This document shows positions 21,075 to 21,653 of a stretch of 64,000 nucleotides of DNA, piece after piece. Every line of letters begins with the position of its first letter. Within the stretch, counting starts at the first letter, position 1. Source of the stretch: Escherichia coli (GTDB lineage: Bacteria; Pseudomonadota; Gammaproteobacteria; Enterobacterales; Enterobacteriaceae); the NCBI RefSeq assembly GCF_048403405.1, contig NZ_CP183129.1; one strand, given 5' to 3'. A program made the position numbers.

Positions 21075-21653
21075 TTACCAGGATGATTCTCAAAACAGCA
21101 CAAATTATCAAAGATGATTTTTTCGGGAGCGATCCCGTTGACGCCAGAGCCACCAAGGGGTGACGCGCGTCACATTTCTATTCATAAGTAGCGTTAATCA
21201 TTCATATCACGAATATTTTCTTGTCAGCGAAAAAAATTGCGGATAAGGTGATGAACACATCAGATTTCCTGGTGTAACGAATTTTTTAAGTGCTTCTTGC
21301 TTAAGCAAGTTTCATCCCGACCCCCTCAGGGTCGGGATTTTTTTATTGTGCATTCAACGATTCACTTCAGAGACGCTGAAGTCATGAATATCCAGTTCGA
21401 AGGCATCCGCCAATTCACGCCATGTATGATATTCACGTCCATCGACGCTAACGTGTTCAGAATCGTTCTGGCTGCGATGAACTTCGCTTTCGCTAATTTC
21501 ATTGATCGCCGCCAGCAGGGCATCGACATCGACGCTGACCTCACGTTTTGCGGTATCGCTGTACTCTTTTGCGGTTTTCATCATCTTTCCTCGCAACCGT
21601 TACTCTGTTGTTGCCGCCAGTCGTTAAGTCCGCCTGGCATCTCTTAAGTATAG

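What the first reader, a model, noticed from the sequence alone, without database searches (positions are those of the whole stretch)
21160..21173. Perfect 14-bp GC palindrome between yedP and the dsrA promoter
GTGACGCGCGTCAC lies about 50 bp upstream of the dsrA -35 element and about 105 bp upstream of the divergent yedP start. A perfect palindrome here is a candidate operator for a dimeric regulator acting on the temperature-regulated dsrA promoter or on yedP.
Basis: seen in the sequence. Interest (0 to 1): 0.25.

Follow-up and report, generated by a model that had tools for sequence, protein, structure and literature searches.

The report
Known CRP binding site upstream of dsrA
The 14-bp palindrome is the core of an already reported binding site for the sugar-sensing regulator CRP between the E. 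coli genes yedP and dsrA; its perfect symmetry is a strain-level accident and its regulatory effect is still unmeasured.

Summary
GTGACGCGCGTCAC is at 21160-21173 as described. As a bare palindrome it is unremarkable: the window has 5 perfect 14-mers and 5.0 are expected. With one more base each side it reads gGTGA-N6-TCACA, a cAMP-CRP site. It scores 13.8 bits on a matrix built from ChIP-bound sites.

Binding is published. CRP ChIP-seq in ETEC H10407 lists this exact 16-mer for yedP. Footprint-seq gives about 6.3 nM for the K-12 allele (dsrA/yedP). A 2009 matrix scan had already predicted it.

Comparative data fit CRP and not a 14-bp operator. In 8 Escherichia lineages both half-sites are invariant while 5 of 6 spacer bases vary (P about 3e-5). 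Among about 5,340 E. coli genomes three spacer alleles coexist, and only about 41% are perfectly palindromic. No CRP-like site occurs at this position in about 40 syntenic intergenic regions from other genera.

The palindrome is not the recognised unit, and nothing links it to dsrA temperature control. Which promoter it controls is unresolved. I lean towards sigma-S-dependent yedP, and a preprint claims CRP represses DsrA.

Verdict: already known, low interest.

The parts
21160..21173 (.). The reported 14-bp perfect palindrome GTGACGCGCGTCAC, which is the inner part of the CRP site
   Evidence: It is perfect in only about 41% of E. coli genomes.
21159..21174 (.). 16-bp CRP core GGTGA-CGCGCG-TCACA, with its dyad centre between 21166 and 21167
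   Evidence: 13.76 bits on a matrix built from 106 ChIP-bound sites, with this site excluded; rank 4 in the window. The identical 16-mer is listed as a CRP ChIP-seq site in ETEC H10407.
21156..21177 (.). Full 22-bp CRP site AGGGGTGACGCGCGTCACATTT. The dsrA-side half TCACATTT matches the consensus 8 of 8; the yedP-side half AGGGGTGA matches 5 of 8.
   Evidence: Read directly from the sequence against the consensus AAATGTGATCTAGATCACATTT. The Footprint-seq entry aaTGTGAcgcacgTCACCcct, Kd 6.3 nM, is the K-12 allele.
21159..21163 (.). Left half-site GGTGA (TGTGA in Escherichia sp. MOD1-EC7003)
   Evidence: 21160-21164 is invariant in 8 Escherichia lineages; 21159 is G or T.
21170..21174 (.). Right half-site TCACA
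   Evidence: Invariant in 8 Escherichia lineages.
21164..21169 (.). 6-bp spacer CGCGCG, under no sequence constraint
   Evidence: 21165-21169 vary between Escherichia lineages. Three alleles coexist in E. coli.
21221..21249 (+). dsrA core promoter: -35 TTGTCA at 21221-21226, a 17-bp spacer, and -10 TAAGGT at 21244-21249
   Evidence: Read from the sequence. Conserved across genera. Hexamer assignment is my inference.
21254..21340 (+). dsrA sRNA gene. The CRP centre is at -87.5 from the annotated 5' end, or -90.5 from the TSS mapped by Kim et al. 2012.
   Evidence: Rfam RF00014 at 102.5 bits. K-12 annotation. The mapped TSS, with 694 reads, lies 3 nt inside the annotated end.
20241..21056 (-). 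yedP (mannosyl-3-phosphoglycerate phosphatase-related protein), divergent from dsrA. The CRP centre is 110.5 bp upstream of its ATG.
   Evidence: About 30-fold sigma-S-dependent in stationary phase.
21104..21109 (-). Candidate yedP -10 hexamer GATAAT (inferred, no TSS data). It would place the CRP centre near -69.5.
   Evidence: GATAAT, GATTAT or TATTAT at the aligned position in 6 of 8 Escherichia lineages. No experimental TSS was found in the intergenic region.

Best explanation
The palindrome is the centre of a binding site for the cAMP receptor protein, CRP, a homodimer. Each subunit's helix-turn-helix reads one 5-bp half-site, GGTGA at 21159-21163 and TCACA at 21170-21174. The 6-bp spacer between them is not read base by base, so the perfect 14-bp symmetry seen in this strain is incidental. 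Binding itself is shown by published experiments. The site lies in the 198-bp region shared by the divergent yedP and dsrA promoters and arose in the genus Escherichia. The regulatory output is inferred, not shown. My rough estimates are: about 0.4 that it mainly co-activates the sigma-S-dependent, stationary-phase yedP promoter from an upstream (class I type) position near -69; about 0.3 that it acts mainly on dsrA; and the remainder that it acts on both or has no measurable effect. The confidence given below refers to the identification as a CRP site.
For: Motif: gGTGA-N6-TCACA scores 13.76 bits, against a median of 12.84 for 106 in vivo-bound sites. In vivo binding: CRP ChIP-seq peak 2201816 in ETEC H10407, with site GGTGACGCGCGTCACA identical to the window, assigned to yedP. 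In vitro binding: Footprint-seq Table 1 gives Kd 6.3 nM for the K-12 allele, assigned to dsrA/yedP. Earlier prediction: a matrix hit AGAAATGTGACGCACGTCACCCCT for yedP in Mendoza-Vargas 2009. Evolution: a site of at least 13 bits sits at exactly -87.5 in 8 of 8 Escherichia sequences. The 10 half-site columns are invariant and the 5 central columns variable, the only such window in the intergenic region, permutation P = 3e-5. Three spacer alleles in E. coli have otherwise identical 30-mers. For the yedP leaning: yedP falls about 5 log2 units in delta-rpoS stationary phase, a condition in which cAMP-CRP is active, and a candidate -10 would put CRP near -69.5.
Against: The matrix score alone is weak evidence, since 0.63 sites of this score are expected per 64 kb by chance. 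No experimental yedP TSS exists in the intergenic region in the data I could read. The candidate -10 is absent in 2 of 8 lineages. The DNA on the yedP side of the site is G+C-rich, whereas the dsrA side is A+T-rich. I found no crp or cAMP expression data for yedP. The only expression claim concerns DsrA. The site is absent from the held supplements of one K-12 ChIP-exo study. Many CRP-bound sites have no detectable regulatory effect.
Confidence: 0.9

Rival explanations
1. The CRP site acts mainly on dsrA. Bound CRP at -87.5 or -90.5 would modulate RNA polymerase at the dsrA promoter, either repressing it as a preprint reports or activating it in class I fashion. This would give DsrA, and through it RpoS and H-NS, a carbon-status input.
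For: A December 2025 preprint lists DsrA among sRNAs with a predicted, EMSA-tested CRP site and a cAMP dose response. It places DsrA in a coherent type 2 loop with rpoS, which means CRP represses DsrA. The spacing to dsrA +1 is identical in all 8 Escherichia lineages. Measured from the TSS mapped by Kim 2012, the centre is -90.5, close to the roughly -92.5 class that Haycocks found most common. The DNA between the site and the -35 is A+T-rich.
Against: From the annotated 5' end the centre is -87.5, which is half a helical turn off the class I positions (established knowledge of CRP class I spacing). No standard mechanism explains repression from about -90. The preprint's tables are images, the signal was described as coming from a minor population at 37 C, and a delta-crp effect could be indirect. 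The dsrA core promoter is conserved in genera that lack the site. dsrA temperature control maps to the core promoter (plus memory of Repoila and Gottesman 2001).
Confidence: 0.3
2. CRP binds here but has no regulatory consequence: an orphan site of the kind common in genome-wide CRP maps.
For: No transcriptional effect on either neighbour has been demonstrated in anything I could read. No yedP TSS was detected in the intergenic region under standard conditions. The site was absent from the curated set of 308 sites used as known by the Footprint-seq authors.
Against: The half-sites are invariant across the genus while 41% of intergenic columns and 5 of 6 spacer bases vary (P about 3e-5). At least 98% of E. 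coli genomes keep the same half-sites and flanks. The Footprint-seq authors argue that high-affinity intergenic sites are mostly regulatory.
Confidence: 0.2
3. One reading: a contiguous 14-bp palindromic operator for some other, unidentified dimeric regulator that reads the whole GTGACGCGCGTCAC.
For: Perfect dyad symmetry in this strain.
Against: The central bases are polymorphic within E. coli, so about 59% of genomes lack perfect symmetry. They diverge freely between Escherichia species: CGAAAG, CGGAAG, CGCGGA, CACGCA. Palindromes of this length occur at the chance rate. CRP binding explains the conserved part.
Confidence: 0.03
4. A DNA or RNA hairpin (GTGAC stem with a 4-nt loop) acting as a terminator or RNA structural element.
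For: The simple scan flags it as terminator-like, with a 5-bp stem followed by ATTTCTATTC. It folds at -6.2 kcal/mol.
Against: No gene upstream on either strand ends here. The stem is only 4-5 bp. The fifth pair is broken in 4 of 8 lineages with no compensatory change, and energies fall to -2.8. The T-run is poor.
Confidence: 0.02

Closest known systems
Canonical cAMP-CRP (CAP) operator, consensus AAATGTGATCTAGATCACATTT, as at lac and in the ETEC and K-12 genome-wide maps
   Same: It has two inverted 5-bp half-sites 6 bp apart, one half a perfect TCACATTT. Affinity is nanomolar in vitro and the site is occupied in vivo.
   Different: The left half is GGTGA with a G+C-rich flank. The spacer is all G/C rather than the preferred T...A next to the half-sites. 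The distance to a TSS matches no textbook class from the annotated dsrA +1 (-87.5), and the yedP TSS is unknown.
csiD-type promoters: sigma-S-dependent and activated by cAMP-CRP from a non-standard upstream position (-68.5 at csiD; recalled from Germer et al. 2001, not checked here)
   Same: yedP is strongly sigma-S-dependent. The candidate -10 would put CRP at -69.5 or -68.5.
   Different: The yedP TSS, its CRP dependence and its sigma selectivity are all untested. The resemblance rests on an inferred -10 hexamer.
CRP-controlled sRNA promoters: cyaR (activated) and spf/Spot 42 (repressed)
   Same: A CRP site lies upstream of an Hfq-dependent sRNA gene. A preprint groups DsrA with the CRP-repressed sRNAs.
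   Different: In the known cases the CRP site lies close to or over the core promoter (from memory). Here it is about 90 bp upstream, and direct regulation has not been demonstrated.
Single CRP sites shared by divergent gene pairs in the same ChIP-seq table (for example garP/garD, aspA/fxsA, ycgB/dadA)
   Same: One CRP dimer sits in a short divergent intergenic region and could serve either or both promoters.
   Different: One partner here is an sRNA gene, which the ETEC table did not consider. It lists only yedP.

Membership tests
cAMP-CRP binding site (CRP-N type) | Inverted half-sites TGTGA and TCACA separated by exactly 6 bp | tested here: met
   GGTGA-CGCGCG-TCACA at 21159-21174, matching 9 of 10 half-site bases.
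cAMP-CRP binding site (CRP-N type) | Matrix score within the range of sites bound in vivo | tested here: met
   13.76 bits, against 5.7 / 12.8 / 18.5 for the 5th / 50th / 95th percentiles of 106 ChIP sites. Rank 4 in the window, with 0.63 expected by chance per 64 kb.
cAMP-CRP binding site (CRP-N type) | Direct binding of purified cAMP-CRP | not testable with these tools
   Published: Footprint-seq Kd about 6.3 nM for the K-12 allele, which has the same half-sites and the spacer CGTGCG. The preprint's EMSA on the dsrA promoter cannot be read.
cAMP-CRP binding site (CRP-N type) | Occupancy by CRP in living cells | not testable with these tools
   Published: a high-confidence ChIP-seq peak in ETEC H10407 on a 16-mer identical to the window. 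Not found in the held supplements of a K-12 ChIP-exo study.
cAMP-CRP binding site (CRP-N type) | Selection on the half-sites but not on the spacer | tested here: met
   10 of 10 half-site columns are invariant and 5 of 5 central columns variable in 8 Escherichia lineages, P = 3e-5. Three spacer alleles occur in 5,240 E. coli genomes with otherwise identical 30-mers.
cAMP-CRP binding site (CRP-N type) | Position compatible with class I (-61.5, -71.5, -82.5, -92.5) or class II (-41.5) activation | tested here: inconclusive
   For dsrA the centre is -87.5 from the annotated 5' end or -90.5 from the Kim 2012 TSS. For yedP no TSS is known; the candidate -10 gives about -69.5.
cAMP-CRP binding site (CRP-N type) | CRP- or cAMP-dependent change in transcription of a neighbouring promoter | not tested
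   The only evidence is a preprint claim that DsrA is CRP-repressed, with its data in images. No crp data for yedP could be retrieved.
Sxy-dependent CRP-S site | Half-sites TGCGA and TCGCA, with C and G at the positions where CRP-N sites have T and A (consensus recalled from memory) | tested here: not met
   The half-sites are GGTGA and TCACA.
Intrinsic terminator | A stable G+C-rich stem-loop followed by a U-run at the end of a transcription unit | tested here: not met
   The stem is 4-5 bp, -2.8 to -6.2 kcal/mol in the E. coli alleles. The fifth pair is lost in 4 of 8 lineages and no gene ends here.

The most novel reading that the evidence does not exclude
The Escherichia-specific CRP site directly tunes dsrA transcription. 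cAMP levels would then feed into DsrA and, through it, into RpoS translation and H-NS silencing. That would form a CRP-DsrA-rpoS feed-forward loop found in Escherichia but not in Salmonella, Citrobacter or Enterobacter, which share the same dsrA core promoter but lack the site.
Probability: 0.25. Interest if true: 0.4.

Novelty: already known. Interest (0 to 1): 0.12.

Why it matters
It matters little as a discovery. The site was predicted in 2009, found by ChIP-seq in 2015 and measured in vitro in 2026. What this analysis adds is modest. It shows that the perfect palindrome is one of three common spacer alleles, so symmetry was the wrong cue. It shows that the site is a genus-level gain under selection on the half-sites only. 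It also shows that the target promoter is still open. If the site does act on dsrA, it would add a carbon-status input to a well-studied sRNA whose known control is by temperature. If it acts on yedP, it is one more sigma-S/CRP co-regulated stationary-phase gene.

Tried and rejected
1. Statistical weight of the palindrome itself. Rejected: 5 perfect 14-mers observed against 5.0 expected.

2. I recovered 68 species-level loci through a dsrA pattern. About 40 non-Escherichia regions keep yedP-dsrA synteny, but none has a CRP-like site above 7.8 bits.

3. Hairpin or terminator reading. Rejected.

4. A yedP transcription start.
- Kim 2012 lists only a 2-read TSS 464 nt upstream, inside yodD.
- Mendoza-Vargas 2009 lists only an internal +75 TSS.
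- The Cappable-seq GTF was truncated when stored, and by size it appears to end well before this locus.
- Conway 2014 and Kim 2018 have no held supplements.
- Thomason 2015 is not held.

5. Expression of yedP or dsrA in crp mutants. Nothing readable was found. The tables in the preprint on CRP-regulated sRNAs are images.

6. The Repoila and Gottesman 2001 and 2003 papers (dsrA promoter deletion and mutation series) are not held. Two reviews added nothing on upstream sequences.

7. The spacer allele CGCGCA, seen in one species-representative genome labelled E. coli (L019), has no match among the 5,426 complete genomes.

Full report
**Observation.** The window is E. coli; the 321-bp query around the site (21040-21360) is 100% identical to strains E2865 and LR-03. 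GTGACGCGCGTCAC sits at 21160-21173. DsrA matches Rfam RF00014 at 21254-21340 on the + strand. yedP is the ORF at 20241-21056 on the - strand. As a bare palindrome the feature is not unusual. The window has 5 perfect palindromes of 14 bp or more, against 5.0 +/- 2.4 in simulations.

**What it is.** With one more base on each side the sequence reads gGTGA-CGCGCG-TCACA, and the dsrA-side half extends to a perfect TCACATTT. That is the architecture of a cAMP-CRP site. I built a symmetric weight matrix from the 106 other sites in the ETEC ChIP-seq table.
- The site scores 13.76 bits, above the median of those bound sites (12.84).
- It ranks fourth in the window.
- About 0.6 sites of that score are expected by chance per 64 kb, so the score alone proves little.

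**Published binding evidence.**
- Haycocks et al. 2015 (PMC4287617) list a high-confidence CRP ChIP-seq peak at H10407 coordinate 2201816. Its site, GGTGACGCGCGTCACA, is identical to the window and is assigned to yedP.
- Wang, Stringer and Wade 2026 (Footprint-seq preprint, PMC12871828) list aaTGTGAcgcacgTCACCcct with Kd 6.3 nM, assigned to dsrA/yedP, among "novel CRP sites with Kd below 10 nM". This is the K-12 allele read on the other strand.
- Mendoza-Vargas et al. 2009 had already listed the same sequence as a matrix-predicted CRP site for yedP.

**Comparative test.** A dsrA pattern recovered 68 species-level loci.
- A site of at least 13 bits lies at exactly -87.5 from dsrA +1 in all 8 Escherichia sequences: the window, K-12, two further E. 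coli-like genomes, E. albertii, E. whittamii and two unnamed species.
- About 40 non-Escherichia regions keep the yedP-dsrA arrangement with an intergenic region of about 200 bp. None reaches 8 bits.
- In the Escherichia alignment GTGAC (21160-21164) and TCACA (21170-21174) are invariant. Positions 21165-21169 all vary, giving the spacers CGCGCG, CGTGCG, CGCGCA, CACGCA, CGGAAG, CGCGGA and CGAAAG.
- With 59% of intergenic columns invariant, this pattern has P about 3e-5 and occurs nowhere else in the region.

**Variation within E. coli.** Exact 30-mer searches gave the following counts among about 5,340 genomes carrying the locus.

| Spacer | Genomes |
|---|---|
| CGCGCG (perfect palindrome) | 2,173 |
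| CGCACG | 1,600 |
| CGTGCG (K-12) | 1,467 |

Together these are 98% of the genomes. The half-sites and flanks are fixed, the two central bases are free, and only about 41% of strains have the perfect palindrome. This is what CRP recognition predicts, and it argues against a contiguous 14-bp operator.

**Hairpin rival.** The hairpin reading is weak. The stem is 4-5 bp, the fifth pair is lost in 4 of 8 lineages with no compensatory change, and no transcript ends here.

**How it most likely works.** Shown: cAMP-CRP binds this DNA in vitro and in vivo. Inferred: its regulatory output.

*Geometry for dsrA.* The centre is -87.5 from the annotated 5' end, which is off the class I helical face. It is -90.5 from the TSS mapped with 694 reads by Kim et al. 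2012. That is near the roughly -92.5 class that Haycocks found common.

*Evidence on DsrA expression.* A December 2025 preprint lists DsrA as CRP-regulated. It places DsrA in a coherent type 2 loop with rpoS, which means repression by CRP. The tables are images and the signal was weak at 37 C.

*Evidence on yedP.*
- No TSS in the intergenic region was found.
- The gene falls about 5 log2 units in a delta-rpoS strain in stationary phase.
- A candidate -10 (GATAAT, GATTAT or TATTAT at 21109-21104), present in 6 of 8 lineages, would put CRP near -69.5.
- That position resembles the sigma-S/CRP promoter csiD, which I recall from memory and did not check.

*Estimates.* I lean towards yedP activation (about 0.4) over a direct effect on dsrA (about 0.3). 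The remainder covers both promoters or neither.

*Temperature control.* Nothing links the site to dsrA thermoregulation. The known determinants lie in the core promoter. From memory of Repoila and Gottesman 2001, a 36-bp minimal promoter is sufficient; those papers could not be read.

**Comparison with what is known, and novelty.** This is a member of the ordinary CRP-N site family. The motif, the score and the evolutionary signature were tested here and met. Binding is published. Promoter geometry is inconclusive and transcriptional effect is untested. It is not a CRP-S site and not a terminator. The finding is already known as a CRP-bound site. The additions here are the allele frequencies, the restriction to one genus and the half-site versus spacer contrast. 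Interest is low.

**Side observations.** The same intergenic region holds two dyads conserved far more widely than the CRP site.
- GGGAnCGnTCCC (21125-21136) occurs in 29 of 50 syntenic regions, against 2.7% of shuffles. It lies at a nearly fixed distance from dsrA +1.
- An RcsB-box-like dyad, TGAGA-ATCA-TCCTG on the yedP strand (21093-21080), occurs in 47 of 50 regions, against 4.6% of shuffles.

Neither is explained here.

Noticed in passing
window 21125-21136 (GGGAGCGATCCC; invariant block 21120-21137): The inverted repeat GGGAnCGnTCCC, a perfect 12-bp palindrome GGGATCGATCCC in some Citrobacter, occurs in 29 of 50 syntenic yedP-dsrA intergenic regions across Escherichia, Salmonella, Citrobacter, Enterobacter and others, against 2.7% of shuffles. 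Its start is nearly fixed at about -129 from dsrA +1, while its distance to the yedP ATG varies from 72 to 109 bp. It is a better candidate for a conserved operator, or a yedP promoter or 5'-UTR element, than the reported palindrome. Its function is unknown.
   Followed up: partly
window 21080-21093, minus strand TGAGAATCATCCTG: A dyad fitting an RcsB-box-like pattern (T-N-[GA]GA-N4-TC[CT]-N-N, consensus recalled from memory) lies 28-66 bp upstream of the yedP ATG in 47 of 50 syntenic regions, against 4.6% of shuffles. Examples are TAGGATTTTTCCTA in Salmonella and TAAGAATATTCTTA in Enterobacter. It suggests yedP belongs to the Rcs regulon; rcsA lies about 1 kb away. This was not tested.
   Followed up: partly
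window 20241-21056 (yedP): In Cho et al. 2014 Table S7, yedP (b1955) is 11.3-11.7 log2 in wild-type stationary phase and 6.2-6.6 in delta-rpoS, about 30-fold sigma-S-dependent. The neighbours yodD and dgcQ are also sigma-S-dependent, while dsrA rises in 2 of 3 delta-rpoS replicates.
   Followed up: partly
window 21164-21169: The two non-palindromic E. coli spacer alleles, CGTGCG (1,467 genomes) and CGCACG (1,600 genomes), are reverse complements of each other within the 14-mer. Each is one transition away from the palindromic CGCGCG (2,173 genomes). All three are at high frequency.
   Followed up: yes
window 21254-21257: The dsrA TSS mapped by Kim et al. 2012 (694 reads) lies 3 nt inside the annotated 5' end. 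That gives a more typical 7-nt gap after the TAAGGT -10 and moves the CRP centre from -87.5 to -90.5.
   Followed up: partly
window 58482-58497: The strongest CRP-matrix hit in the window is TGTGATTTGCATCACA at 19.1 bits. It corresponds to the azuR/azuC-yecR intergenic region of K-12 at about 1,988,077. Mendoza-Vargas 2009 lists near-identical predicted CRP sites for yecR.
   Followed up: partly
window 13092-13107 and 12799-12814: Two more strong CRP-matrix hits are TGTGATTTTTATCACA (18.1 bits) and TGTGATCACGCGCACA (14.8 bits). They lie between drpB (yedR) and rseX, and between rseX and yedS. They correspond to the yedR and yedS entries in the Footprint-seq and ETEC ChIP-seq tables.
   Followed up: partly
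window 21296-21309: Another perfect 14-bp palindrome, CTTGCTTAAGCAAG, lies inside dsrA, in the central stem-loop of the sRNA. The remaining three in the window are at 7245, 22973 and 45231 and were not examined.
   Followed up: no
window 21057-21079 compared with other genera: Escherichia has about 25-30 bp less sequence between the RcsB-like box and the yedP ATG than most other genera. The yedP leader or promoter was therefore remodelled in the same lineage that gained the CRP site.
   Followed up: no
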